Part shown: positions 7,552 through 64,000 of the stretch, piece by piece
How the letters are laid out: every line of letters begins with the position of its first letter
How positions within the stretch are numbered: the stretch's first letter is position 1
Assembly: GCA_951406725.2 (NCBI GenBank)
Contig: OX597822.1
Span: forward strand, 28,520,001-28,584,000
Source: Octopus vulgaris
Lineage: Eukaryota
Reading direction: 5' to 3'
DNA length: 64,000 bases
Notes under the pieces: model-generated
The model's input: only the letters and a program-made list of their open reading frames with translations
Told to the model about the DNA's origin: nothing
Database searches by the model: none
Translations under genes and position numbers: made by a program

Positions 7552-9594
7552 ATGGAAACTTTTATTCTGATGTGCGTGCTTTCTTTTCTATTGTTCTTAA
7601 ATATTGTATCACATGCCACAGACTTCAACAACTGCAGCCCAGGTTTGTGTTCTGATCCTCCTGCATATGGCGTACCTGAACGTTGTTCGTGCCGCCCGGA
7701 CTGCTACCTCTACAATGAATGCTGTTCTGACAAGATTAATAAAACCACTTCTGATCACAAACAACCCTATCCATCAATATATTACAGTTGTAGAAAGCTT
7801 AGTGATTCATATTATTATCAGTTTGATCGTTGTCCACCTAACCATGATATTACAGAGTATGTGAACAAGTGTGAAAATCCTGACTCAGATGACCAACTAC
7901 AAAATATACCCGCTTTTGGTAAAACTAGTAAAAGATTATTTAGGAACCTATATTGTTCTTTGTGTCATGGAGAGGAATTCATTCTTTGGAATCTTTTATA
8001 TGAATGCAACTTCATCCTTTCTCCAAGCATTGAAAATATATCAAATTATGTCAATGATGGAATATGTACACCAACTCTGAAGCTTCCTTCAGAAGATTTA
8101 GAGAAAAATTTGTATTCCTGTATTCCATATATTTCGAATTGTCCTCAAGATAACAATAGTACGGAACAAAGAATCGCATGTGAATCCGAGGCCATGGCAT
8201 TAATATATTTAGATGAGGAAAAATATTTCATACATACTAAATATAAAGATTATTACTTTTACAAAAACAGAGGTTGTGCCACATGCAACGGGGTTTTTGA
8301 AGTACCGTGTAAATTATTTTATTTTGAAATGCTCGCAAGTCATGTTATTCCACCATTAACGATCCTCTTCAATTATCATACAAAATCCATAACGATAACG
8401 GGTGAACACATCGAAACGGAACATACGCTTCTGCAGTTACCATCGTGTCCAAAACACGCAGTCTACGATATGAATACTAAGGAATGTCGACAAGTTATCT
8501 ACAATCCTCAACTAAACTGTACGATAACAAGATTAAATGAATCTGAGTATCATATTACAAGCGATGGTCTCCTGTATATAAATAAAACTCAACGTTTTCT
8601 AAACCAATCAGAATTCACTCGTGATTCTCAAGGTATAATAAGTATCTGTGTAAACAATGGTACCAATAATATATCAAATATCAATGGTGTATCAAAATAC
8701 TCCATTGTTGAGGGCTATATCACTTTAGTAGGACTAGTAATCTCTATTCCAGCTCTAGCAATCACTATTATAGTCTATCTCTGTATACCTGATCTCCGTA
8801 CCTTACCAGGTAAATTACTCATTAGTCTTTTATCAGCATTGTTTGCAGCTGAGCTTCTCTTTCTTATCTCATCACAAGCCACTACATCTACAGCTCTGTG
8901 TACATCTTTAGCTATAGTGATACATTATTCGTTTCTAGCGACTTTCTTCTGGATGAATGTCATGTCATTTGATGCGTGGTACACTTTTTCGGGATTCACA
9001 CAGCTTCGGAGTAAAGGAAAAGGTACCAAGAGACTTGTATTATATTCTTTGTATGGTTGGATCTGTCCACTTGTAATAGTAACAGTATCACTGATATTTG
9101 AGTATATTCCTGGAAATCATGGACTTTCCCCAGAATATGGAAATGGTATTTGCTGGATTAAAAATGGAAAAGGTCTACTGTGGCTCTTTGCAATCCCTGT
9201 AATGATTATTTTATGTCTTAATTTCGTAGCATTTATCCTCACCACTAGAGGGCTTTATATGGCCAGCAAATTATCTTCAAAATATTTATCGAAACATAGC
9301 AGAAATGAATTTTTTATTTGCCTAAAACTATATCTTGTTATGGGACTAACATGGACATTCGCATTTCTGTATACGTTTACAAGAATTGAAGAATTTTCTC
9401 TATTATTTTGTATTTTAAATTCTTTTGTTGGATTATTTATTTGTGTATCGTTTCTATCAACAAAAATTGTTCATCGCAGTATTCTTCGTAATTTGCACAA
9501 AATTGCAAGATTGCCTACAAAAGAATTTACTGATGTTTCTTCTGCTCCTAAGACAATATCAACGGATGTATCAGCTGAAAGGTCAGTTAACTAA
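7552..9594 (+). CDS. Family-B (secretin-class) Methuselah-like GPCR with SMB-like/Cys-rich ectodomain, 680 aa (receptor 1)
   Basis: Uninterrupted ORF; hydrophobic signal peptide; CSCRPDCYLYNECCSD (somatomedin-B-like); Cys-rich ectodomain; seven hydrophobic helices with LRTLPGK, HYSFLATFFWMNVMSFD, YG..ICWI and MGLTW motifs; no GPS motif seen. Confidence 0.93.
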   Translation: METFILMCVLSFLLFLNIVSHATDFNNCSPGLCSDPPAYGVPERCSCRPDCYLYNECCSDKINKTTSDHKQPYPSIYYSCRKLSDSYYYQFDRCPPNHDITEYVNKCENPDSDDQLQNIPAFGKTSKRLFRNLYCSLCHGEEFILWNLLYECNFILSPSIENISNYVNDGICTPTLKLPSEDLEKNLYSCIPYISNCPQDNNSTEQRIACESEAMALIYLDEEKYFIHTKYKDYYFYKNRGCATCNGVFEVPCKLFYFEMLASHVIPPLTILFNYHTKSITITGEHIETEHTLLQLPSCPKHAVYDMNTKECRQVIYNPQLNCTITRLNESEYHITSDGLLYINKTQRFLNQSEFTRDSQGIISICVNNGTNNISNINGVSKYSIVEGYITLVGLVISIPALAITIIVYLCIPDLRTLPGKLLISLLSALFAAELLFLISSQATTSTALCTSLAIVIHYSFLATFFWMNVMSFDAWYTFSGFTQLRSKGKGTKRLVLYSLYGWICPLVIVTVSLIFEYIPGNHGLSPEYGNGICWIKNGKGLLWLFAIPVMIILCLNFVAFILTTRGLYMASKLSSKYLSKHSRNEFFICLKLYLVMGLTWTFAFLYTFTRIEEFSLLFCILNSFVGLFICVSFLSTKIVHRSILRNLHKIARLPTKEFTDVSSAPKTISTDVSAERSVN

Positions 9595-22622: not shown

Positions 22623-24719
22623 TCAAGGCTTTGTGGAAGGATTCGCAACAGTTTCTGGCCTTTCAAGTGACGACATTCCACACTGGTTAAATTCATACAA
22701 GTTTCGCTTAACGGCAGAGTTGATTGTAGGTACATCCGTTGATTGTGTTACACGAGCAGAAGTCACATCAACAGACTCTTTTGCGGGCAATTTTATAATT
22801 GTTTGCAAATTCCGCAGAATACTGCGACGAATAGTCTTTGTTGATAGAAACGATACGCAAATAAATATTCCAACGAATGAATTTAAAATACAAAATAACA
22901 GAGAAAATTCTTCAATTCTTGTAAACGTATACAGAAATGCGGATACCCATGTAAGTCCCATGATAAAGAATAGTTTTATGCAAACGATGAACTCATCATT
23001 ATTACGTTTTGACAAATATTTCGAAGAAAGTTTACTGCTCAAATAGAGCCCTCTAGCGGTAAGGATAAATGCTATTATATTAAGACATATAATAAACATT
23101 ACGGGGATTGCAAAAAACCATAGTAGACTTTTTCCATTTGTAATCCAGCAAATACTACTTCCATATTCTGGAGAAAGTCCATGATTTCCAGGTGTGTACT
23201 CAAATATCAGTGATACTGTTACTATTACAAGTGGACAGATCCAAGCATACAAGGAATACAATACAAGTCTCTTGGTGCCTTTGCCTTTACTCCGAAGCTG
23301 TGTGAATCCCGAGAAAGTGTGCCAGGCATCAAATGACATGACATTCATCCAGAAGAAAGTTGTTAAAAAGGAATAATGCATGATAATAGCCAAAGATTTA
23401 CACAGCACTGTAAATTTAGTGACTTGTGATGAGATAAGAAAGAGAAGCTCACCTACAAACAGTGCTGATAAAAGACTAATGAGTAATTTACCTGGTAAGG
23501 TACGAAGATCAGGTATACAGAGATAGACTATAATAGTGATTGCCAGAGCTGGAATAGAGATTACGAGTCCCACTAATGTGATATAGCTCCCAGCTACGGA
23601 ATATTTTGATACACCATTGATATTTGATATATTATTGGTACCATTGTTTACACAGATACTTATACCTTGAGAATCACGAGTGAATTCTGATTGGTTCAGC
23701 AAACGTTGGGTATTATTTAAGTAGAGATGACCATCACTAGTAATGTAATACTCAGATTCATTTAATATTGTTGTTGTACACTTTAGTGGAGGATGGTAGA
23801 TAACTTGTCGACATTCCTTAGTATTCATATCGTAGACTGCGTGTTTTGGACACGATGGTAACTGCAGAAGCGTATGTTCCGTTCCGATGTGTTCACCCGT
23901 TATCGTTATGGATTTTGTATGATAATTGAAGAGGATTGTAAGTGGTATAAATGAACCTACTGAAGGATATATTTTGTATTCTACTTCACACGGAACTTCA
24001 AAAATCCCGTTACATGTAGCACAAGGTTTGTTTTTGTATTGATTTAAATGTTCTTGATTTAAATATATTAATGCCATGGGCTCAGTTTCACACGCCATTC
24101 TTTGTTCTGTGTTATTGTTATCCTGAGGACAATTCGAAATATATGGAATACAGGAATACAAATATTTATCCAGATCTTCTGAAGGAAGCGTCACAGTTGG
24201 TACACATGTTCCATCCTTGACGTAATTTGATATATTTTCAATGCTTGGAGAAAGGAAGGAACTGCATTTATATAAAAGATTCCAAAGAATGAATTCCTCT
24301 CCATGACAGAGAGCGCAATATAGGTTCTTATATAGTTTTTTACTTGTTTTACCAAAAGCAGGAATGGATTGCAGTTGGTCATCTGAGTCGGGATTTTCAC
24401 AGTTGTTCACATACTCTGTAACATCATGGTTAGGTGGACAACGATCAAACTGATAATAATAAGAGTCATCAACCTTTCTACAACTATAATATATTGAAGG
24501 ATAGGGTTGTTTGTGATCAGAAGTGGTGTTCTGATCCATGTCAGAACAACATTCATTATAGAGGTAGCAGTCCGGGCGACACGAACAACGCTCAGGTATG
24601 CCATATATGGCAGGATCAGAACACAAAGCTGGGCTGCAATTGTTGAAGAAGTGTGCAAATGATGCATCTTTTGAGAACATTATAAGAGAAATTACAAGCA
24701 ACTGAAATGATGTTACCAT
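22623..24719 (-). CDS. Family-B Methuselah-like GPCR, 698 aa (receptor 2)
   Basis: Intact paralog of receptor 1; ATG at 24719 chosen by alignment (TTTAAAATG context, signal peptide follows); longer C-tail. Confidence 0.93.
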   Translation of the reverse strand: MVTSFQLLVISLIMFSKDASFAHFFNNCSPALCSDPAIYGIPERCSCRPDCYLYNECCSDMDQNTTSDHKQPYPSIYYSCRKVDDSYYYQFDRCPPNHDVTEYVNNCENPDSDDQLQSIPAFGKTSKKLYKNLYCALCHGEEFILWNLLYKCSSFLSPSIENISNYVKDGTCVPTVTLPSEDLDKYLYSCIPYISNCPQDNNNTEQRMACETEPMALIYLNQEHLNQYKNKPCATCNGIFEVPCEVEYKIYPSVGSFIPLTILFNYHTKSITITGEHIGTEHTLLQLPSCPKHAVYDMNTKECRQVIYHPPLKCTTTILNESEYYITSDGHLYLNNTQRLLNQSEFTRDSQGISICVNNGTNNISNINGVSKYSVAGSYITLVGLVISIPALAITIIVYLCIPDLRTLPGKLLISLLSALFVGELLFLISSQVTKFTVLCKSLAIIMHYSFLTTFFWMNVMSFDAWHTFSGFTQLRSKGKGTKRLVLYSLYAWICPLVIVTVSLIFEYTPGNHGLSPEYGSSICWITNGKSLLWFFAIPVMFIICLNIIAFILTARGLYLSSKLSSKYLSKRNNDEFIVCIKLFFIMGLTWVSAFLYTFTRIEEFSLLFCILNSFVGIFICVSFLSTKTIRRSILRNLQTIIKLPAKESVDVTSARVTQSTDVPTINSAVKRNLYEFNQCGMSSLERPETVANPSTKP

Positions 24720-36358: not shown

Positions 36359-36478
36359 TTATATTTATATTAGTTCTATTATTTGTATTTAGGCTCCAAC
36401 TAATGACTTCTCTAATTCTCTAAAAAATGTTTGCTGCAATAATTTGGGCAGAACTAATATTCTGCCGATTATGGGAAA

Positions 36479-36730
36479 ATGAATTATACGGGTTTGAGTG
36501 AACACATCTGGACTATAAAGCATGTGGACACTAAATATGACATTAAATGGTCAATTATTAGTAATGATTCACCATATACCGTTGGATATTCGAAATGTGA
36601 TCTCTGCTTAGAAGAATCATTCTATATCCTTACCTGTAATTTCAGATTATTTAATCCCAGAAACAAATTAGCAGCAAAATGCGCACATTTATTTAGAAAA
36701 GTATTTCAGTATTTTCCAAATAAGGAATCT
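36479..36730 (+). mobile_element. Penelope-like GIY-YIG C-terminal fragment (also at about 57385-57575)
   Basis: GLSEHIW..YDIKWSII..KCDLCLEE..FNPRNKLAAKCAH. Confidence 0.8.
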
Positions 36731-38738
36731 TATTTGGAAATCACGTAGATGAAAGGATACATAAGTTTATCTAGTTAACTTCTGTCGCAAATTTACTTAC
36801 GTTTTAACAAATCTGCATTAATCCTAACTATTATATATTTTTGGTAGGGAGGAAATAATGCAAAATATGGTTAGAATGTATATTTACTTCACACAACATA
36901 CATTGATTAGACTTACGTTAAAATTTCACATAATTTACCAAAATCTATTATAATTCAGAGTTGTAACTGAAATGGTATTGATTAATAGCTTTGGTTTCAT
37001 AATAAAGGTTTTGTAGTTTAGATAGTGATGAAAAAAGGGACATTTTATTCTTCATACCAGTTTATATATATTAGTTACATAACTGGAATACATATGGCTT
37101 CAAATGAAGATTAGAACAGCAACGCTATCTGGACATATACAACACGAGCCGAGACATCAGTATTAATATTGATTTGCTTTTGAGTGAGCTCAATTCTGAG
37201 AAGGGTACAGCATGAAATGTTATGTTTTCTCAACAACATTAGCAATATCAGTTCACGTTTACACAGAAACCCAAACCCGCAGTAACGTTACTTAAAATCT
37301 ACTGATAACGTTTATTGAGAAGCTCAAACTATATCGGTAAAATTCATGGAGATAGCTTTGAAATTTCGTTCAGCATTTGAAATAGCAGCAGGCAAGCTAT
37401 GTTAATCGTAATAAAATGTACTTTTGTACTCACGAAGAATTGCTTTTTATATTTTATTTATCTAGTTTAATATTACAGACATAGAGTACGTAAGTTAAAA
37501 TGCTCATCATTAATGACAGGATATTATGATTCATTTAATGCCGTTATTATACAAGGTATTAGACAACAAAAATATGATATATATTGTGGTTTGAATAAGA
37601 CTTACCGTCAGTGAATAAAAACCTTTATATGAAAGTAATATGACAATTAAAAGTAACGTTTAAAACGATTTGATTTTGCTCTTGTCGAAACAAATTATTT
37701 TCTCATGCAAAAAGTTTATATAAGTTACCAGAATACAAAAAGACTTGTTGAGAGTATTATAAAATTAACGAAATGTTATCAGTATTCTTCTTAACACCTT
37801 CTGATCTCTCCGTAGATAATGTGTTACGGAATGGAAGGTAAAAGCACTACAGCATCTTGATTGCTGGACAAATAAGAGCTGATTAGCAGAGAATTAGTTG
37901 GATAATTAAAAGCGATAAAAATAATAATTAATAGAGTTGGGATACAAATGTGATACACGGGTAATAGTCTCTTATCACACGCACCAGTCTCTCTATAGAT
38001 CCAGTTACATGTGACGCAATAAATGTTTTTCAGAACGTTTCCCAAAACGTTTTTCATTTCATAGTTATTCAATAAGTGTGAGGAAGAGACTATATAAGAT
38101 GGGAATAGAACGAGATTATATAAGTTAGGAAACATATCTCCATAGACATTGCTAGATTAGCAAGTTATGCATGACCATGGGGAGATATGAGTGAGCTCAA
38201 ACTTCATAAACAACCCGCATATTCAAAAATGTTCGGTCAACAGAAATTAAATGGGATACAAGGATAAAAAAAAAGGGATACAATAAAATTACTAACTATA
38301 TAGGGTTTGGAACAAAAAGTGAGTCCGTTCAACAGCTCATGTGGACATAAAAAGTTTTAATATATTGAGTACAGGTGACACTGGCCAAAAATAAACGAAC
38401 AAGTTCCTGAAAGAGATAGGCACGTACCCTTCACACTTGCAAGGCGTTTATCTTATACGAATTCAAATAGAATCTAGAAAACATAACTTTTCTTTTTTGT
38501 TTTTTCATTTCTTTTTTTCCGAATCGGCATTTTAGGAATTTCAGTTCAGAATGTTGTTAATTGTTGAACTTGGTAACCTCAGCTGATTCATAGTCTCGAA
38601 GATCTATAGTCAAAGGTATTCTAGTAAGAACCATCATGTCATTTATTCAGATTTAATATATAATTTATTATCCATTATTTCCATCTTCATTCCACTGACG
38701 ATATTGAGTAACCCACATTGGTTAGCTTGACGATACAC

Positions 38739-40652
38739 CTACGGATTTATATTCGTTGATGTTGTTTTATGAGCGAAATTAACATCAACAGATTCTTTTG
38801 TGGATGTTTTTGTAATTTTTTGCAGATTCTGAAAAATACTGCGTCGAGCAATACTTGTTGATAGAAACGATAAACATATAAGTAATCCAACGAATGAGTT
38901 TAAAATACAAAATAATAGAGAAAATTCTTCAATTCTTGTAAACGTATACAGAAATGCGAATGTCCATGTTAGCCCCATGATAAAGAATAGTTTTACACAA
39001 ATGATAAACTCCAATTTCTTATGTTTTGATAAATATTTCGAAGAGAGTTTGCGTGCCAAATAGAGCCCTCTAGCGGTGAGGGTAAACGCTATGATATTAA
39101 GACATAAAATAAACATTACAGGGATTAAAAAAAACCATAGCAGACTTTTTCCATTTTTAATCCAGCAAATATCTTTTCCATACTCTGGGGAAAGTCCATG
39201 ATTTCCAGGAATATACTCAAATACCAGTGATACTGTTACTATTACAAGTGGACAGATCCAAGCATACAAGGAACAAAATACAAATCTCTTGGTATGTTTT
39301 CCTTTACTTCGAAGTTGTGTGAGTCCTGAGAAAGTGTGACAGGCATCAAATTACACTGTAGATTTAGTGATTTGTGATGAGATAAGAAATAGAAGCTCAG
39401 CTACAAACAGTGCTGACAAAAGACTAATGAGTAATTTACCTGGTAAGGTACGGAGATCAGGTATACAGAGATAGACTATAATGGTGATTGCTAGAGCTGG
39501 AATAGAGATTACGAGTCCCACTAATGTGATATAGTCTCAGCTACGGAATATTTTGATATACCATTGATATTTGATATATTATTGGTACCATTGTTTACAC
39601 AGATACTTATTATACCTTGAGAATCACGAGTGAATTCTGATTGGTTCAGCAAACGTTCGGTATTATTTAAGTAAAGAAGATCATCACTAGTAATGTAATA
39701 CTCAGATTCATTTAATCTTGTTGTCGTACAGTTTAGTGGAGGATGGTAGATAACTTGTCGACATTGATCGGTATTGATATCGTAGACAGCGTATCTTTGG
39801 ACAGGAGGGAGACTGCACATGTCTATTTTCCGTTTGGCCTAATTCATTTCTTACCTTTACAGTATTGGTATAATAATCAAAAAGTATTGTTAGAGGAACA
39901 TATCCTACATTTCCACTTATTTCAAGATAATACACTTTACAAATATCACTGGAAAACCCGTTACATTTGGCACAGTCATTATTTTTGTAAAACACCCTAT
40001 TTACATTATCTACATATATTAACGCCATTGGCTCAGACTCACATGCCACCGTTTGTTCTTTATTACTATCTTGTGGACAACTCGAAATAAATGGAATACA
40101 AGAATACAAATATTTCTTCAAATCTTCTGGAGGTTTCACATCTGGCCAACATCTTTCTTCTTGAGATAATTTGATTATATTTTCAAAGCTTACATCAGAG
40201 TGAGTCAGCATTATATAAAAGATTCCAAAGAATAAATTCTTCTCCATGACACAGAGCACAATACAGGTTTCTATAGAGTATTTTACTTGTTTTACCAAAA
40301 GCGGGTATGTTTTGTAGTTGATCATCTGAGTCAGGATTTTCGCAGTTGTTCACATACTCCGTAACATCATGGTTAGGCGGACAACGGTCAAACTGATAAT
40401 AAGTATAATAATCATCACAAACTTGTACAGCTGTAATATAGTGATGGATAGTATGTGATTAGAAGTGCTCTTATTAGCCATGTCAGAACAACATTCCTTG
40501 TAGAGGTAACAGTCCGGACGACACGAACAGCGTTCCGTGTGCGCGGGAGGATCTGAGCACAAAGCTGGGCTACAGTTGTTGAAGTATTGTGCATATGTTA
40601 CAATATTTGAGAACAATAAACGACAAACTACAACCAACAAAACTGTTTCCAT
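38739..40652 (-). pseudogene. Disabled Methuselah-like GPCR paralog (receptor 3)
   Basis: Full-length homology split across frames; indels near 40450, 40420, 40205, 39795 and 39535; 69-nt deletion of TM3 with TAA at 39351-39353. Confidence 0.88.
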
Positions 40653-40960
40653 TTTCAAAGACATAATGAATAATGCATGAATTGACCTTCCAAGTCCCGG
40701 TGATACTTTGATAATTTACTTCACTGCCGTAAATTTAAAGGTATTACTATGTACTTTGAAATTTAGCAATGTTTCCAAGAGATATAATGATCAATACCTT
40801 CACAAAATTTTCATTCCGAAGCGGAACAATGAAATTAATTTCGGTAGATTTAGATTCTTTGATTTTATTGCTATTAAATGTTGAATGTTCGCGACTCGGC
40901 TACTTAGCGTCACATATATGCATGTATGAATATATATAGATCCGAAGATAGTTGAGGCAT

Positions 40961-41305
40961 CTGCAAAAGAACAAATATTTCATTAAACATACTATTATTG
41001 TAAACATTGATACATATTAAAGCACACACGCATATACACAGATAAACACACACGCATAATATATATATATACAACTTATAAACAAGGGCAAAAGAAAAAA
41101 TTCCAATGCCTAATATGCCGAAAATAGACTTAATCGTCAATAACCATATAATTTATCACTATAAGCACGCATCTAGAAAGCAAGCCGATAGAAATTTCTA
41201 ATAAATTTCGTTATTATCGAATCGGCCCCGATTTCTGAGTTAATTCATTTAGAATTTTCTCGTAATCAGCGATAAATACGATAAGAAAATTAATGAGATA
41301 CTTAC
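40961..41305 (-). other. Candidate 5'UTR intron of receptor 3
   Basis: CAA|GTAAGT ... tttgttcttttgcag|ATG. Confidence 0.6.
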
Positions 41306-41446
41306 TTGTACCCACGGAAGAAGTAAACACTAAGTCCTGTGTACACTTAAGTACCCCAAATATATTCAAAATAGAAATTCAACAGCATTCTTCGAGACAC
41401 GTGTGATTCACTTCGGGACTCATTTTCAGTCCGATCACATTTTTTT

Positions 41447-41471
41447 TTATTTATTATTATTATTATTATTG

Positions 41472-41543
<72 letters not shown>
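41447..41543. repeat. (TTA)n microsatellite (paralogous tract at about 62485-62567)
   Basis: Direct reading. Confidence 0.95.
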
Positions 41544-41544
<1 letters not shown>

Positions 41545-43416
41545 TAGTGTTGTTGTTATACATACATACATACATACAAGCATACGTAATGAAAATAATA
41601 ATAAGTGGATGTCAACACATGAACAAAATAAGAATAAACAAAAACAACAATAAAAGCAAATTACACGAACGTATAAAAACAGAAGATACAAATATTACAG
41701 GCATCCCTCCACCACACACACACACTAACTAAACATAGACGCATATAGAGATATAAGCGAGTGCAAATGAAGACATACAATAGAAATACAAAATGGCTGA
41801 CGGTTAGTAAGGAGAGACACAAATAAGAAAGAAGAAAACAAAGGACCACTGATGCGGTCACAGGAGTGTGACGAAAGAACTCTGGCTGAAATTAGATTAA
41901 GATTAATGTACAAAATAAATATCACTGAAGCAAAATAACACCAAATATATAGTGCGTGTGTTTTTATTGGCTAAACTGGCAAAATGACCATTCCGAAATA
42001 TAACAATATCTGTTTTAACACACGGCTTCACGTAAAAAATCTTGCACAACAGATATATAAACGTACAATACTACGGCTGAAACAAAATAAAAGCAGAGAG
42101 GCGCAACGAAGTAGAAGGATAAATGTTGTCAGTGTCTTACCGCTGTGCATAGGAAAACAGTGATATCATTACAAATAATTAATTGCTTAGTTTTTGCATG
42201 ATAAAGAATATTACTCTTACCAATATCCAAATTTCGCTTCGGTGCTCAGACGTCGCAACAACAGTCGTCGTTACCTCCTAAAGTTAGATGTGAATTGAAA
42301 GCAGGATGGGCACAATGTCATTGAAAGTGATAGGAAAAGAAGAGAGAGAGAGTGAATGAGAACGACAGAGATATCGACAATAAAGTGGAATCAAATGACA
42401 AGTAGCAAAGTGGTCAATATGTAGCTGCCGTTCTCCGGAAGCAATCTAAGAACAATAATACAGCTGAGTCAGAGAGAGAAACAAATGAAAGAATACAGTA
42501 ACATTATCACTAAGAGAGAGTTCACAAGGAGGATATAATAAGACGGATATTCATTAAAACTAGGATGGGACAAATGTCGTTAAAAGAGAGAGGGGTTGAC
42601 GGGCATATCTCCAAGAGAGTGTTAACGAAGGAGAGGTACGAAGACTTGCTAGTATGTGGCAGATCTGTTGAGTAGTAAGCAAAGAACAATGATACGGTGG
42701 TGAGAGAAGGAGAAAAAAGGAAGAGAAAACAGTGTGATCCATATCGAGGATAAATTTGTTAATTTACATGCAATCGTCTATAAACAAACAATGATTGAGA
42801 ATTGTGATGTAGCAAAGATTTCCGCCTACGGCAAATTCTATATTTCTACTGAGACCAGGATGGGTCGTATGGCATTAGCAAGGAGGTGGATGGAGAGGAA
42901 GAGAAATGACAGAGATATCCCCAACAGAGTGGCAACGAATGAGGGGACCGAAGGTCTTCAGTATGTGGCAGCAGTATTGAAGAAGAAAATAAAGAATAAT
43001 AAGGAAAAGAAAAGAAAAAGGGAGAAAACAGTAACATTAACACTAAGGAAGAGATGACAAGGGACAAATTTACAATACCTAGGAAATATTTCAGGAAAAG
43101 TTCCTATTTTTACGGGGAACGTATGTATTAATTTGCATGCAGAACAATATTTTTCTTACCGGCAGGAGAGTTCAGAAGTCGGCAGGAGAGTTCTGTCTAC
43201 AGATGTAGTTAGATTGTTAATGAAAAGAGGAGGGGCAGAATATCATCAAGGGAGTAAGGCCAAGAGAATAAGAGAATGTGTGAACAACGAAGATATTACA
43301 AATAGACGAGCAACTTCTATTGGGATGTCGCAGTTGTGTTGAGGAAAAAAAGACAGAGATAGACAGAGAAAGAAAAGGAGAGAAAGCAGTAATATTATCA
43401 GTGAGAAGGGAGTGAC

Positions 43417-55300: not shown

Positions 55301-56165
55301 TCAGGAAAATCAGGTTTTAATTCTTGTATTATTTCAGTTGCCAATTTGGATTTGTTTTTTATTTTGGTTTGTATTTGAGAGTTTATGAAGTAGTTCTCTA
55401 TCATTCATACTTGTATGTCTTACAACTTCAAGCGTATTCAGGATTTTCTGCCTCATTTCTGCCATAGACTCTCTATGTTCTTCAGCAAATGCGAAATCTT
55501 CAGTTACTGTTGTTTTATCATTTTCCTGGCTATCTTCAACAGGTACAATAGAATTTCTTGTATCTTCAGGCCTTTGCGTACTTTGGTCAGATGGCAGTCT
55601 TTCAATTAAGCCTCGTGGCGGGCTATACTGTTCATCTGATTCTTCATTTCCTTTGTGTCTTATATTTATGTCATTTTCCGTTGCGTGCTTGATCGCGCTT
55701 ATTTCAGTGTTTGTGAGTCTGTTATTTCTAAGGATATCCCTCATCACATTTGCCAATTTGTTCTCGTCCAAATAGGGCCTACTGTCTTGATTCCTTGTTC
55801 TCCATATACTGTAAGAGTTTGCGGTGTGTCTCTCTTGAGATGGCCTACCTAATGCATAGTAATAAGCGTATATTACTTCTTTATACTCTTCTCGGGTCCA
55901 TTTGTTCCGCTTACATTTTCTTTCTGTGGTGGTTGTGGTGGTGAACTTAGAGGGCTCGAGTTGGAGGATTTCCCGTTCAAGTGACCATCCATGTCCGTAT
56001 TCGGAGAAGAGTTTGTGTCAGTTTCGATCCCAGGCTGGCTCTTCCCTGGGGGACGCGCTTCCAGATTAACCATAGGACAAGTGATTTGGTTAGTTTCCAA
56101 AAACATTTTGGTGCGACGATAATGTTATCATTTTTGAGCTTTGATTGGCACGTGGGGAAACGGCC
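52309..56165 (-). mobile_element. Near full-length R4/Dong-clade non-LTR retrotransposon (RT, CCHC, restriction-like endonuclease), inactivated
   Basis: NYRPITCL, WIDYKKAFDSIPH, IFQGDSLSPL, YMDDLKLY, CRFC..ETVDHLISGC, RHD, NKPDIV..ID..K..KY; the ORF is broken into several frames; 3' end abuts (TAA)n. Confidence 0.9.
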
Positions 56166-57212: not shown

Positions 57213-57257
<45 letters not shown>

Positions 57258-59651
57258 TATATCAGTTCTATTATATGTGGTTAATAGGCTCCAACTATTG
57301 AATACACTAATTTTTTTTAAACTTGTGTGATGCAATAATTTGGGCTAAACAAATATTCTGCCGATTAGGGTTTAAAAAAAGTAAATTACACGGCTTTGAG
57401 TGGGCTCACTTGGACTTTAAATGATATGGACACTAAACATACCGTTGGGTATTCGAAACGTGATCTCTGCTTGGAAGAATCATTCCATATCCTTACTTGT
57501 ACTTTCAGATTATTTAATCCCAGAAACAAATTAGCAGTAAAATGCGCACAGTTATTTAGAAAAGTTTTCATTATTTCCAAATAAGATTCCTTATTTACAA
57601 ATCACGTAGATGAAAGTACACATAAGTTAACCCAGTTAGCTTATATTGCAAATTTACTTACGTTTTAATAAATTTTCACTAATCCTAACTATTATTTATT
57701 TTTTGGAAGGGGAGAAATAATACAAAATATGGTTAGAATGAATATTTACTTCACACAACATATATTGATTAAGCTTACGTTAACATCTCAGATTGTTTAG
57801 CAAAATCTATTGTAATTCATAGAGCAGTAAATGAAACGGTATTGATTAATTGCTTTGATTTCATAATATTAGCGCAAAGGTTTTGTAATTTAGATAATTA
57901 TAAAAAAAGGGACACTTTTTCCTTCATGCAAATTCATATATATTAGTTACATAAATGGAATAAATGAAGATTGGAACAGCAAGGCTAACTGGAAATATAC
58001 AACACGAGCCGAGCTTTCAGAATTAATATTGACTGGACTCGATTCAGAGAACGGATAAGGCAAGAAATGTTACGCTTTCCCAACAACATTAGCAATATCA
58101 GTTCACGTTTACACAGAAACCTGCAGTAATGTTACTTAAAATCTACTGATAACGTTTACTGAGAAGCTCAAACTATATCGGTAAATTTCATGGAAGATAA
58201 CTTTCAAATTTCGTTCAGCATTTGAAATAGCAGCAGGCAAGCTATGTTAATAGAAAGAATGACTATAACAGAGAGGCTTTTCAGTCTTCATAAACCTATA
58301 GAGGAACATGGATATTCAACACGTAATAAAAAACAAATTTTGTATTTATGAAGTGCTTTTTATTATATTCTCTTTATATAATTTAATATTACAGATATAG
58401 AGTACGTAAGTTAAAATGCTCATCATTAATGACAGGATATTATGATTCATTTAATCCCGTTGTTTTACTATGTATTAGACCATAAGAATAACAGCTAAGG
58501 AGTCGACATCGTCTGATTATTATATGGTATACATATCGTGGTTTGGATATTGTCATTGATTTAACACATTTATATGGAAGTAATACCACAATAAGAAATA
58601 GCGTTTACAATACACTGATTTTGCTCATGGCGAAACAATTATTTTCTTATGCAAAACGACCAAAAGACTTGTTGAAAATATTATAAAACTGGTGCGATAT
58701 TGTCAGCATTCTTTTTAACAACATCAGATCTCTCCGTAGATAACGTTTAACGGACAGAAAGGGAAACGCCCAGCAACATTTTGCTTGCTGGACAAATAAG
58801 AGCTGATTATTAGAGAATTAATTGGATAACTGAAAGCGACGAATAATAATATTTTAATAGAGTTGGCATAGAAATGCGATACATGAGTGGTAGACTATTA
58901 TCACACACACTAGTATCTCTACAAATCCCGTTACATGTGACGTAATAAATGTTTTTCAAAGCGTTTTCCGAAACGTACATCAGGATTATTCCAAATGTGT
59001 GAGGAAGAGATTATATAATATAGGAAGTCAACGAGACTATTTAAAACCATTTAAAATCGTTTGAGCGAACTAAAAGACAGGGAGAGAGACATGAGTGAGC
59101 TCAAACTTCATAAAACCCACATATTCGTAAAATGTTAGGTCAACAGAAAATAAATGGGATACAAAAAAGAATAGAAAAAAAGGATACAATAAAATTACTA
59201 ACTATATGGGATTTTCAGCAAAAAGTGAGTCCGTTCAACAGCTCAGGTGGACATGAAAATTTTAATATATTGAAGAACAGAAGAAATTGCCAAAAATAAA
59301 AGGGCAAGTTACTGAAAGAAATAGGCACGTACCCTTCACACTTGCAAGGCGTTTATCTTATACGAATTCAAATAGAATCTAGAAAACATAACTTTTCTTT
59401 TTTCGTTTTTTTCATTTCTTTTTTCCGAATCGGCATTTTTCCGAATCGGAATTTCAGTTCAGAGTGTTGTTAATTGTTGAACTTGGTAACCTCAGCTGAT
59501 TCATAGTCTCGAAGATCTATAGTCAAAGGTATTCTAGTAACAGCCATCACGTCATTTATTCAGATTTAATATATAATTTATTATCCATTATTTCCATCTT
59601 CATTCCACTGACGATATTGAGTAACCCACATTGGTTAGCTTGACTGCACAA

Positions 59652-61643
59652 CTAAGGAGTTATATTCGTTGATGTTGTTTTATGAGCGAAATTAACATCA
59701 ACAGATTCTTTTGCGGATGTTTTTGTAATTTTTTGCAGATTCTGAAAAATACTACGTCGAGCAATACTTGTTGATAGAAACGATAAACATATAAGTAATC
59801 CAACGAATGAGTTTAAAATACAAAATAATAGAGAAAATTCTTCAATTCTTGTAAACGTATACAGAAATGCGAATGTCCATGTTAGCCCCATGATAAAGAA
59901 TAGTTTTACGCAAATGATAAACTCCAATTTCTTATGTTTTGATAAATATTTCGAAGAGAGTTTGCGTGCCAAATACAGCCCTCTAGCGGTGAGGGTAAAC
60001 GCTATGATATTAAGACATAAAATAAACATTACAGGGATTAAATAAAACCATAGCAGACTTTTTCCATTTTTAATCCAGCAAATATCTTTTCCATACTCTG
60101 GGGAAAGTCCATGATTTCCAGGAATATACTCAAATACCAGTGATACTGTTACTATTACAAGTGGACAGATCCAAGCATACAAGGAACAAAATACAAATCT
60201 CTTGGTATGTTTTCCTTTACTTCGAAGTTGTGTTAGTCCCGAGAAAGTGTACCAAGCATCAAATGACATGACATTCATCCAGAAGAAAGTCGCTAGAAAC
60301 GAATAATGCATTACTACAGCTAAAGATTTACACAGCACTGTAGATGTAGTAACTTGTGATGAGATAAGAAAGAGAAGCTCAGCTGCAAACAGTGCTGATA
60401 AAAGACTAATGAGCAATTTACCTGGTAAGGTACGGAGATCAGGTATACAGAGATAGACTATAATGGTGATTGCTAGAGCTGGAATAGAGATTACGAGTCC
60501 CACTAATGTGATATAGCTCTCAGCTACGGAATATTTTGATATACCATTGATATTTGATATATTATTGGTACCATTGTTTACACAGATACTTATTATACCC
60601 TGAGAATCACGAGTGAATTCTGATTGGTTCAGCAAACGTTGGGTATTATTTAAGTAGAGAAGATCATCATTAGTGACGTAATACTCAGATTCATTTAATT
60701 TTGTTGTCGTACAGTTTAGTGCAGGATGGTAGATGACTTGTCGACATTTCTTAACTCTCAAATCGTAGATAGCGTATTTTGGACAGGAGGGAGACTGCAC
60801 ATGTCTATTTTCCGTTTGGCCTAATTCATTTCTTACCTTTACAGTATTGGTATAATAATCAAAAAGTATTGTTAGAGGAAAAGGTTCTACTCTGTAAGCT
60901 ATTTCACGATAATTCACTTTACAAATATCACTGGAAAACCCGTTGCATATAGCACAACCTTTGTTTTTGTAAACTTTAAGAAATTTATATATGCCATTTA
61001 CAAGGTAGTCTGTGCTAGACTCCATATATATCAATGCCATTGGCTCAGACTCACATGCCATTATTTGTTCCTTATTATTGTTATCTTGAGGACAATTCGA
61101 AATATATGGTGTACAACTATGCAAATATTTGATCAAATATGATTGAAGCTCTACTGTTGGCCTACATCTATCCTTGAGATAATTTGATATATTTTCAAAG
61201 GTTACATTAGAGATTCTGTCGCAGTTATATAAAAGATTGCAGAGAATGAATTCCTCTCCATGACACAGAGCACAATACAGGTTCCTGTAGAGTCTTTTAC
61301 TTGTTTTACCAAAAGCAGGAATGATCTGCAGTTGATCCTCTGAGTCCGGATATTCACAGTTGTTAACATACTCAATAACATCATGGTTATCTGGACAACG
61401 GTCAAACTGATAAGCATAATAATCACCAGCTTTTCGGCAACTCATAGTTGGGTAGTATGTGATAGAAGAGGTCTTATGAATAATGTCAGAACAGCATCCA
61501 TTGTAGAGGTAGCAGTCTGGTTGACACGAACAACGTTCCGATGCGCCATCTGAACACAAAGCTGGGCTACAATTGTTGAAGTATCCTGCATGTGTTATAA
61601 CACTTGAGAACAAAAGAATGCAAACTAAAAACAATGTTTCCAT
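59652..61643 (-). CDS. Family-B Methuselah-like GPCR, 663 aa (receptor 4)
   Basis: Intact paralog; ATG at 61643 (METLFL) aligns with the starts of the other copies; same domain order. Confidence 0.93.
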   Translation of the reverse strand: METLFLVCILLFSSVITHAGYFNNCSPALCSDGASERCSCQPDCYLYNGCCSDIIHKTSSITYYPTMSCRKAGDYYAYQFDRCPDNHDVIEYVNNCEYPDSEDQLQIIPAFGKTSKRLYRNLYCALCHGEEFILCNLLYNCDRISNVTFENISNYLKDRCRPTVELQSYLIKYLHSCTPYISNCPQDNNNKEQIMACESEPMALIYMESSTDYLVNGIYKFLKVYKNKGCAICNGFSSDICKVNYREIAYRVEPFPLTILFDYYTNTVKVRNELGQTENRHVQSPSCPKYAIYDLRVKKCRQVIYHPALNCTTTKLNESEYYVTNDDLLYLNNTQRLLNQSEFTRDSQGIISICVNNGTNNISNINGISKYSVAESYITLVGLVISIPALAITIIVYLCIPDLRTLPGKLLISLLSALFAAELLFLISSQVTTSTVLCKSLAVVMHYSFLATFFWMNVMSFDAWYTFSGLTQLRSKGKHTKRFVFCSLYAWICPLVIVTVSLVFEYIPGNHGLSPEYGKDICWIKNGKSLLWFYLIPVMFILCLNIIAFTLTARGLYLARKLSSKYLSKHKKLEFIICVKLFFIMGLTWTFAFLYTFTRIEEFSLLFCILNSFVGLLICLSFLSTSIARRSIFQNLQKITKTSAKESVDVNFAHKTTSTNITP

Positions 61644-61952
61644 TTTAAAAGATATAATTAATGATGCATGAATTAACCTTTCAAATCCTAATAGTTCTTT
61701 GATATTTTGCTTCACTGCTGTAATTTTACAAGATCTGACAGGTATTTTTAAAATTTTGCAATGTTTCCTGATGATACAATGACTATTACCTTAACAATAT
61801 TTTCATTCCGAAGCGGGGTAATGAAATTAATTTCGGTAGATTTAGATTCTTGGATTTTATTGGTATTAAATGTTGAATGTTCGCGACTCGGCTACTTAGC
61901 GTCACATATATGCATGTATGAATATATATAGATCCGAAGATAATTGAGGCAT

Positions 61953-62050
61953 CTGCAAAAGAACAAATATTTCATTAAACATACTATTATTGTAAACATT
62001 GATACATATTCAAGAACACACGCATATACACAGATAAACACGCACGCATG

Positions 62051-62109
<59 letters not shown>

Positions 62110-62325
62110 ACTTAAAAACAAGGGCAAAGGAAAAAATTCTAATGCCAAATATGCCGAAAATAACCATATAATTTATCACTATAAGCACGCGTCTTGAAAG
62201 CAAGCCGATAGAAATTTCTAAAAAATTTCCTTATTATCGAATCGGCCCCGATTTCTGGGTTAATTCATTTAGAATTTTCTCGTCATCAGCGATAAATACG
62301 ATAAGAAAATTAATGAGATACTTAC
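61953..62325 (-). other. Candidate 5'UTR intron of receptor 4
   Basis: CAA|GTAAGT ... tttgttcttttgcag|ATG, as in receptor 3. Confidence 0.6.
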
Positions 62326-62490
62326 TTGTACCCACGGAAGAAGTAAACACTAAGTCCTGTCTGCACTTAAGTACCCCAAATATATTCAAAATAGAAATTC
62401 AACAGCATTCTTCGAGACACGTGTGATTCACTTCGGGACTCTCTCACTCTATGAGAATTTTCAGTCCGATCACATATTTTTTTTTATTTA

Positions 62491-62567
<77 letters not shown>

Positions 62568-64000
62568 TAGTGTTGTTGTTATACATACATACATACAAGC
62601 ATACGTAATGAAAATAATAATAAGTGGATGTAAACACATGAACAACATACGAATAAACAAAAACAACAATAAAAGCAAATTACACGAACATATATAAACA
62701 GAAGATACAAATATTACAGGCATCCCTCCACCACACACACACTAACTAAACATAGACGCACATAGAGATATAAGCGTGCGCAAATGAAGATATACAATAG
62801 AAATACAAAATGGCTGACGGTTAGTAAGGAGAGACACAAATAAGAAAGAAGAAAACAAAGGACCACTGATGCAGTCACAGGAGTGTGACGAAAGAACTCT
62901 GGCTGAAATTAGATTAAGATTAATGTCCAAAATAAATATCACTGAAGCAAAATAACACCAAATATATAGTGCGTGTGTTTTTATTGGCTAAAACTGGCAA
63001 AATGACCATTCCGAAATATAACAATATCTGTTTTAACACACGATTTCACATAAATAATCTTGCACAACAAATATATAAACGTACAATAATACGGCTGAAA
63101 CAAAATAAAAGCAGAGAGGCGCAACGAAGTAGAAGGATAAATGTTGTCAGTGTCTTACCGCTGTGCAGAGGAAAACAGTGATATCATTACACAGAAAGCA
63201 TTGCTTAAATTTTGCATGGTAAAGAATATTGCTCTTACCAATATCCAAACTTGGTTTCGGTGCTCGGACGTCGCAACAACAGTCGCCGTTACCTCCTATA
63301 GCTAGATGTGAATTGAAAGCAGGATGGGCACAATGTCATTGAAAGTGATAGGAAAAGAAGACAGAGAGAGTGAATGAGAACGACAGAGATATCGACAATA
63401 AAGTGGAATCAAATGACAAGTAGCAAAGTGGTCAATATGTAGCTGCCGTTTTCCGGAAGCAATCTAAGAACAATAATACGGCTGAGTCAGAGAGAGAAAC
63501 AAAAGAAAGAATACAGTAACATTATCACTAAGAGAGAGTTCACAAGGAGGACATATACAGTGTATAGTAAATATTTCGAAATACAGCGATATCTTTATGG
63601 AGAATACATTGGTTAATTTGCATGGAAGCTTATGCTGCTGTTCCTGATATCCAGAGTTTGTCTAAGAACTGAGATTGTGGAAGTATTTGCACCTGCAGCT
63701 GTTAATTGATGTTTAATGAAACCAGAATGGGTAAAATGTCATTAAGAGAGAGAAGGATAAAGATGTTACCGATATAATAAGACGGATTTTCATTAAAACT
63801 AGGATGGGACAAATGTCGTTAAAAGAGAGAGGGGTAGACGAACATATCTCCAAGAGAGTGTTAACGAAGGAGAGGTACGAAGGCTTGCTGGTATGTGGCA
63901 GATCTGTTGAGTAGTAAACAAAGAACAATGAGAGAAGGAGAAAAAAGGAAGAGAAAACAGTGTGATACATATCGTGGATAAATTCGTTAATTTACATGCA

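What the first reader, a model, noticed from the sequence alone, without database searches (positions are those of the whole stretch)
8311..8352. Hypervariable loop 2: fixed 14-aa segment before invariant PLTILF(N/D)Y
Between a conserved Cys and PLTILF each copy has exactly 14 residues sharing only one Tyr: KLFYFEMLASHVIP, EVEYKIYPSVGSFI, KVYYLEISGNVGYV, KVNYREIAYRVEPF. The flanks are nearly identical within pairs (1/2 and 3/4). Constant length with near-complete residue turnover suggests diversifying selection or short-tract replacement on a structurally constrained segment.
Basis: partly seen in the sequence, partly recalled or inferred. Interest (0 to 1): 0.78.

Follow-up and report, generated by a model that had tools for sequence, protein, structure and literature searches.

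The report
Fast-evolving loop in octopus arm receptors
A short segment in the outer part of a known octopus family of tandem Methuselah-like receptors changes far faster than the rest of the protein while the DNA beside it is copied between genes, likely because selection retunes what each receptor recognises; the ligand is unknown.

Summary
The window holds four class B GPCR genes (one broken) of the octopus Methuselah-like cluster published as group 4 (PMC6408891). The segment is the most divergent 14-residue window in three comparisons. Its length is not fixed: 12-18 residues across 26 distinct octopus loops.

Six likely ortholog pairs against O. bimaculoides differ at 41 of 83 loop residues versus 216 of 1650 elsewhere in the ectodomain; neutral expectation is about 23% (p 1e-7 at dS 0.123). 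Copies 3 and 4 show 12 replacement and 1 silent change. The loop-only codon test is not significant (omega 3.35, p 0.12).

The loop follows orthology, while the tract behind it was homogenised by gene conversion. No donor segment was found in the window or among 31 family loops; no whole genome was available.

Best reading: a specificity segment under episodic positive selection, preserved as a divergence peak amid conversion. This is a known evolutionary pattern, but apparently unreported here and at odds with the published 'purifying selection' result. Orthologs are expressed mainly in sucker, skin and arm nerve cord.

The parts
7552..9594 (+). Copy 1 (c1): single-ORF Methuselah-like class B GPCR, 680 aa; signal peptide, SMB-like/DUF8401 Cys-rich ectodomain, 7TM at aa 389-630
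   Evidence: 99% identical to O. sinensis P0023 and 90% to O. bimaculoides P0001
8311..8352 (+). Loop 2 of c1 (aa 254-267), the segment of the finding; coil in the model, between Cys253 and the PLTILF strand
8203..8259 (+). Loop 1 of c1 (aa 218-236), length-variable hairpin tip before the second CxxCNG motif
   Evidence: pLDDT 53 in its middle
8362..8505 (+). Tract homogenised between c1 and c2 (aa 271-318: identical runs of 52 and 89 nt), starting just behind loop 2; holds a second variable patch at aa 280-293 that differs between sub-clades
22623..24719 (-). Copy 2 (c2), intact ORF of about 698 aa
23946..23987 (-). Loop 2 of c2
38739..40652 (-). Copy 3 (c3), broken and mosaic: frameshifting indels near 40450/40418, 40200-40159, 39795 and 39534, 69-nt deletion near 39355; N-terminal part like P0012, aa 248-302 and most of the C-terminal part like the c4 clade
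39897..39938 (-). Loop 2 of c3
59652..61643 (-). Copy 4 (c4), intact ORF of 663 aa
60879..60920 (-). Loop 2 of c4; first three residues strand, the rest coil in the model
36359..42772 (.). Duplicated block around c3, matching 57250-64000 around c4; non-coding parts differ at 345 of 3646 aligned bases
57250..64000 (.). Duplicated block around c4, running off the window end

Best explanation
The segment is the fastest-changing stretch in the ectodomain of a tandem family of octopus Methuselah-like GPCRs, and it likely helps set what each receptor binds, changing under episodic positive selection while gene conversion homogenises the DNA beside it. Shown: the family and cluster; the excess of amino-acid change; vertical inheritance of the c1 and c2 loops; a conversion tract that starts just behind the loop. 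Inferred: that selection rather than loss of constraint drives the excess; that the loop is exposed and contacts a ligand, likely a peptide or protein as for other class B receptors; that conversion across the loop is purged because it would erase a specificity. Unknown: the ligand, and whether loop 1, loop 2 and the patch at aa 280-293 form one surface.
For: Six likely ortholog pairs (vulgaris group vs O. bimaculoides): 41 of 83 loop residues differ vs 216 of 1650 in the rest of the ectodomain (Fisher p 2e-14). Neutral expectation is 0.228 at dS 0.123 (value from PMC10925132; model): p 1e-7, and p 0.0025 at dS 0.2; the three cleanest pairs alone give 17 of 41, p 0.006. Three O. sinensis paralogs over 90% identical differ at 7-11 of 14 loop residues vs 28-42 of about 575 elsewhere. 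c3/c4: 12.3 replacement changes in 31.4 sites vs 0.7 silent in 10.6; background pS 0.03-0.08 in the shared part; non-coding divergence of the duplicated block 3.6-15.4%. Seven of 14 positions hold three or more residues among five c4-clade loops while V2, Y4 and E6 stay fixed. Four-taxon test (c1, c2 and their orthologs): 6 loop sites follow orthology, none the species; 4 of 7 species-pattern sites cluster at aa 281-291 (p 0.0003). Both models put most of the loop in coil. Ten of 13 group-4 genes with data on the O. bimaculoides scaffold peak in sucker, skin or axial nerve cord.
Against: Loop-only codon model on four sequences: omega 3.35, LRT 2.4, p 0.12. Replacement vs silent within the loop: p 0.07 for c3/c4, 0.07-0.09 for c1/c2, 0.014 pooled, on a window picked for its divergence. 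The very strong test with branch lengths shared with the flanks (p 3e-13) is invalid because the flanks are converted. The same segment is a variable linker of 8-34 residues in 61 of 139 distant homologs that matched the pattern, so it is intrinsically tolerant. O. vulgaris-type vs O. sinensis loops are identical in 5 of 7 pairs (4/97 vs 29/2032, p 0.06). Orthology is inferred, shifted registers may inflate some counts (P0010/P0184), and dS is a genome-wide mean, not a local one. The published analysis of this group found omega 0.306 and no selected sites. Read-laying rows inside the loop are uninformative (9 rows, p 0.45). No ligand or exposure data.
Confidence: 0.65

Rival explanations
1. 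The segment is a nearly unconstrained linker that drifts at the neutral rate and looks like a peak only because conversion keeps resetting its flanks and its own divergence blocks conversion across it.
For: Variable in length and sequence across distant homologs; low model confidence in c1 (pLDDT 61); flank conversion shown; loop-only test not significant; c1/c2 loop pS 0.42 vs about 0.21 background.
Against: Between-species ortholog divergence is about twice the neutral expectation, which flank conversion cannot create; c3/c4 loop pS equals background while pN is 0.39; fixed V2/Y4/E6 alternating with multi-state sites.
Confidence: 0.23
2. The loop is swapped as a short cassette from donor paralogs or pseudogenes elsewhere in the genome, as in antigenic-variation systems.
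For: Conversion is active in the cluster, and c3 carries a tract (aa 248-302) containing the loop from a different sub-clade than its N-terminal part.
Against: No second match to any 42-nt loop in the window above 29/42, which is c3 vs c4; identical loops occur only in ortholog pairs among 31; loops follow orthology; c3/c4 differences are scattered point changes.
Confidence: 0.06
3. The excess comes from a local mutation or small-indel hotspot, or from mis-paired orthologs, not from selection.
For: Length changes occur in the loop (c2 vs P0003; P0035 vs P0017); one pair aligns better with a shifted register; only c1 and c2 orthology has gene-order support.
Against: Silent sites in the c3/c4 loop are not raised; five c4-clade loops align without gaps; the three pairs with about 10% background divergence still show the excess.
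Confidence: 0.06

Closest known systems
Octopus-specific GPCR expansion 'group 4', Methuselah-like (Ritschard et al. 2019, PMC6408891)
   Same: Same family and cluster: the closest relatives of c1 and c2 (A0A0L8GFU5, A0A0L8GGP4) and a c4-clade gene (A0A0L8GFV0) are group-4 genes on Scaffold69694, in the same plus-then-minus order.
   Different: That study reported homogeneous omega 0.306 and no selected sites; the passages, methods and supplements read do not describe a variable ectodomain segment or conversion tracts in this cluster.
Divergence peak under gene conversion (human red/green opsin exon 5; reviewed in PMC3924837)
   Same: A short region follows orthology and stays divergent while adjacent sequence is homogenised within species; read as the target of selection.
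   Different: Here the peak also changes quickly between orthologs, in a cluster of 14 or more genes, and no functional difference has been mapped to it.
Drosophila Methuselah (mth) and its ectodomain (PF06652, PDB 1fjr)
   Same: Related 7TM class; peptide ligands and a ligand site in the ectodomain (passages of PMC2288678); adaptive amino-acid divergence reported (passages of PMC3655951); weak structural likeness of the membrane-proximal stalk (Z 3.9 in both models).
   Different: No PF06652 match in 29 members; the octopus ectodomain is about 365 aa with SMB-like and DUF8401 parts; loop 2 lies outside the part that resembles Mth; mth's adaptive changes were placed in signalling regions.

Membership tests
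Class B (secretin-like) GPCR | 7tm_2 domain (PF00002) above the curated cut-off | tested here: met
   109.9 bits vs cut-off 20.6 for c1; 26 of 29 aligned members match
Octopus group 4 Methuselah-like GPCRs | Closest relatives are listed group-4 genes, in tandem with conserved order and orientation | tested here: met
Octopus group 4 Methuselah-like GPCRs | CDD cd15039 (7tmB3 Methuselah-like) signature | not testable with these tools
DUF8401 (PF28443) ectodomain proteins | PF28443 match in the ectodomain | tested here: inconclusive
   Precomputed on the 90%-identical relative P0001 and on 16 of 22 hits; Atlas hits score 0.88-0.89, a lead only; not returned by the local Pfam scan of c1, whose copy may lack the model
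Arthropod Mth-ectodomain receptors | Methuselah_N domain (PF06652; ten Cys, five disulfides) | tested here: not met
   0 of 29 members at E up to 1; PMC4768249 also finds it only in arthropods
Arthropod Mth-ectodomain receptors | Fold likeness to the solved Mth ectodomain | tested here: inconclusive
   1fjr_A Z 3.9, rmsd 2.4 over 54 and 2.0 over 51 residues, stalk only, tied with unrelated rows
Adhesion GPCR | GAIN domain with GPS motif before TM1 | tested here: not met
   No GPS or GAIN family among 23 Pfam families hit by 29 members, although the best PDB sequence matches of the 7TM are adhesion GPCRs
Donor-cassette diversification (templated antigenic variation) | Silent donor copies that carry the variable segment | tested here: inconclusive
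   None in the window or among 31 family loops; whole genome not held
Donor-cassette diversification (templated antigenic variation) | Variable segment reshuffled between loci rather than inherited with its gene | tested here: not met
   Six loop sites follow orthology, none the species; identical loops in 5 of 7 sister-species pairs; c3 is the one case of a longer tract that includes the loop
Divergence peak under gene conversion | Flanks closer between paralogs within a species than between orthologs, peak region following orthology | tested here: met
   for the c1/c2 pair
Positively selected specificity loop | dN/dS significantly above 1 in the segment with local dS | tested here: inconclusive
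   omega 3.35, p 0.12 on four sequences; pooled count test p 0.014; protein-level excess over genome-wide dS p 1e-7
Positively selected specificity loop | Surface-exposed and in contact with the ligand | not testable with these tools
   Models give secondary structure and confidence only; no ligand known

The most novel reading that the evidence does not exclude
This cluster is a diversified recognition repertoire of the octopus arm: sucker-, skin- and nerve-cord-expressed class B GPCRs whose antibody-like variable loops on an unsolved ectodomain fold read fast-evolving protein or peptide cues (skin self-signals, conspecific or prey surfaces, or neuronal identity tags), a second arm recognition system beside the known chemotactile channels and protocadherins (those two recalled as context).
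Probability: 0.17. Interest if true: 0.78.

Novelty: new member of a known kind. Interest (0 to 1): 0.42.

Why it matters
The gene family is published, but as evolving under plain purifying selection with no known function. A short ectodomain segment that changes faster than neutral points to the likely specificity site of orphan receptors enriched in octopus suckers, skin and arm nerve cord. It gives a direct handle for finding ligands (loop swaps, ectodomain pull-downs) and for a first structure of the DUF8401 ectodomain. The evolutionary pattern itself, a selected peak amid gene conversion, is well known from other tandem families, so the surprise is moderate.

Tried and rejected
No whole genome is held for this window, so donors could be sought only in the window and among database proteins. 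Foldseek found no match at E up to 0.001; VIA-align best Z was 4.2 and 4.4, to unrelated beta-sheet proteins; this does not show a new fold. No RNA holder was listed among sequencing runs. Laying four runs on c4 showed only 40 of 133 difference rows: 37 of 40 change the residue (8.4 silent expected, p 0.017), but p is 0.09 without the 10 rows near indels and 0.45 for the 9 loop rows, so this was given little weight. The codon test with flank-shared branch lengths was rejected as confounded by conversion. The sliding codon-model scan (76 windows) had an optimiser failure at the loop window and little power elsewhere (largest LRT 3.3); it was not used. P0028 was first paired with c4 and P0031 with P0013; both were dropped from the ortholog count as probable paralogs. 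Searches for shorter homologs and with c4 as query each added one fragment. Earlier scan notes returned nothing. A stachel-like reading of the PLTILF motif was dropped: it lies 120 residues before TM1 and no GPS was found.

Full report
What the locus is. The window is AT-rich animal DNA with four copies of one gene: c1 7552-9594 (+), c2 22623-24719 (-), c3 38739-40652 (-) and c4 59652-61643 (-). Each intact copy is a single ORF with a signal peptide, a Cys-rich ectodomain of about 365 residues and a secretin-type 7TM domain. All 22 hits of the first protein search are Octopus proteins, several named Mth-like, 16 with PF28443, which the Atlas names DUF8401. c1, c2 and c4 are about 99% identical to O. 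sinensis proteins, so the window is from the O. vulgaris group. The relatives of c1 and c2 are A0A0L8GFU5 and A0A0L8GGP4, which Ritschard et al. 2019 (PMC6408891) list in their octopus-specific group 4: 14 genes on one O. bimaculoides scaffold, these two adjacent and on opposite strands as here. c3 has several frameshifting indels and a 69-nt deletion.

The observation. The four peptides, their length of 14 and the single shared Tyr are as stated. The segment is the top-ranked 14-residue window among four ortholog pairs (0.41), three recent O. sinensis paralogs (0.62) and all pairs of ten paralogs (0.86). Length is not fixed. Of 31 octopus loops that matched the pattern, 26 are distinct; 12 of those have 14 residues and the range is 12-18. 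Truncated members or those lacking the motif were left out (for example P0015, P0018, P0020, P0021, P0022, P0029, P0033, P0183, P0185). In distant homologs from the unnamed library, 61 of 139 matched the pattern and had 8-34 residues, median 17. c3 and c4 share 6 of 14 residues.

Rate against neutrality, proteins. Six likely ortholog pairs between the vulgaris group and O. bimaculoides differ at 5/14, 6/14 (plus one insertion), 3/14, 10/13, 9/13 and 8/15 (plus two gaps) loop residues: 41 of 83, against 216 of 1650 in the rest of the ectodomain (p 2e-14). [quoted passage not shown] A mutation-only model on the window's loop codons then predicts 22.8% changed residues. The observed 49% gives p 1e-7, or 0.0025 if dS were 0.2; the three pairs with about 10% background give 17 of 41, p 0.006. 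With the first three window-linked pairs alone it was not significant (14 of 42, p 0.08). Orthology is inferred from similarity, with gene order only for c1 and c2; two further pairs were dropped as probable paralogs. Between sister species the loop is identical in 5 of 7 pairs: 4 of 97 residues vs 29 of 2032 (p 0.06). So change is episodic, not continuous. Three O. sinensis paralogs over 90% identical differ at 11, 8 and 7 of 14 loop residues against 28-42 of about 575 elsewhere.

Rate against neutrality, DNA. Only the four window copies were available as DNA. c3/c4 differ in the loop by 12.3 replacement changes in 31.4 sites and 0.7 silent in 10.6; pS in their shared downstream part is 0.03-0.08. 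Non-coding parts of the c3/c4 duplicated block differ at 345 of 3646 bases, 3.6-15.4% by segment; 12 of 31 against 0.15 gives p 0.001, or 0.05 after 45 windows. c1/c2 have pN 0.74 and pS 0.42 in the loop, against pS about 0.21 elsewhere (silent excess p 0.15). Within-loop replacement vs silent tests give p 0.07, 0.07-0.09 and 0.014 pooled. A codon model on the loop alone gives omega 3.35, p 0.12. Selection is therefore well supported by proteins plus an outside dS, and only suggested by the DNA in hand.

Gene conversion. In a four-taxon comparison of c1, c2 and their O. bimaculoides orthologs, 50 sites follow orthology (six in the loop), 7 follow species and 2 neither; four of the seven lie at aa 281-291 (clustering p 0.0003). 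c1 and c2 share identical runs of 52 and 89 nt over aa 271-318 although gene-wide dS is 0.23-0.28. This is the divergence-peak pattern described for red/green opsins (PMC3924837, passages). c3 is a mosaic: P0012-like up to about aa 244, c4-clade over aa 248-302, P0012-like again at 304-337, then c4-clade; the +1 frameshift near 39795 sits at the second junction. So tracts of about 160 nt that include the loop can move, but no 42-nt donor was found: the best second match in the window is 29/42, and identical loops occur only in ortholog pairs.

Structure. Two AlphaFold2 models of the ectodomain have mean pLDDT 81 and 83. In c1 the loop is coil (pLDDT 61 over most of it) between Cys253 and the PLTILF strand; in c4 its first three residues form a strand and the rest is coil. 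Loop 1 is a low-confidence hairpin tip. Coordinates were not returned, so burial and the question of one shared surface are untested. No clear fold match exists. The membrane-proximal stalk aligns weakly to the Drosophila Methuselah ectodomain in both models (Z 3.9); the loop is outside that part.

Expression. In the supplement of PMC6408891 the c1 ortholog has 0.79 of its expression in sucker and 0.15 in skin; the c2 ortholog 0.79 and a c4-clade gene 0.83 in axial nerve cord. Ten of 13 genes with data peak in sucker, skin or nerve cord. These are proportions from another species, not absolute levels.

Mechanism. After tandem duplication, copies likely diverge in ligand preference through a tolerant linker held between a conserved Cys and a core strand. 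Replacement changes are fixed in bursts; conversion keeps stalk, 7TM and parts of the ectodomain alike, and conversion across the loop would be removed by selection or blocked by divergence. A peptide or protein ligand is inferred from class B biology and from Mth (PMC2288678, passages). Confidence 0.65. The main rival is a neutral linker made conspicuous by converted flanks (0.23).

Against the literature. Ritschard et al. report omega 0.306, a non-significant branch test and no selected sites for group 4. Their Table S4 shows a significant sites-model LRT against M0 (78.5), which is not a test of omega above 1. The small log-likelihood (-4193 with 119 parameters) suggests a short trimmed alignment that may have lacked the ectodomain; this is my inference, as their Dryad files were not seen. 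Eight searches were run; those on octopus Methuselah-like receptors listed no paper on this loop. The library lacks most subscription journals. What I saw: PMC6408891 passages, methods, supplement 1 whole and rows of supplements 2 and 3; passages only of PMC4768249, PMC10925132, PMC13669787 (no mention of methuselah or GPCR in its main text; supplements not read), PMC2288678, PMC3655951, PMC3924837 and PMC9068888. Schmidt 2000, West 2001 and Teshima and Innan 2008 were seen only as cited in those papers.

Verdict. A real feature of a known family: a new case of a selected variable segment in a tandem receptor cluster under conversion, not a cassette system. Interest 0.42.

Noticed in passing
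window:52477-56017 (-): Broken non-LTR retrotransposon-like ORFs (reverse-transcriptase-like motifs by eye) between c3 and c4; a public O. vulgaris gene model (P0021) fuses a receptor fragment to the ORF at 55334-56017, and several other public models in this cluster are fused or truncated.
   Followed up: partly
window:8389-8430 (+), c1 aa 280-293: A second variable patch on the hairpin after PLTILF ranks second among paralogs (0.78); most displayed read differences there change the residue. It is hidden in the window pairs by conversion.
   Followed up: partly
window:8005-8085 (+), c1 aa about 152-178: A third variable region between Cys152 and just past Cys172 ranks second among ortholog pairs (0.36).
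   Followed up: no
window:39795: The +1 frameshift of c3 coincides with the downstream junction of its c4-clade tract, suggesting the break arose with the exchange.
   Followed up: partly
window:8494-8658 (+), c1 aa 315-369: The stalk aligns weakly to the C-terminal part of the Drosophila Methuselah ectodomain in two models (Z 3.9), although the Mth ectodomain is described as arthropod-specific; worth folding alone.
   Followed up: partly
window:60879-60920, run X3 record 14: A c4-like contig with 6 differences in 203 nt appears, from depth sums, to carry three replacement changes inside the loop, hinting at allelic or sister-species variation; the table was truncated.
   Followed up: no
window:60989-60966 region, loop 1; protein P0003: Loop 1 varies in length from 7 to 21 residues, and in P0003 contains a short tandem duplication.
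   Followed up: no
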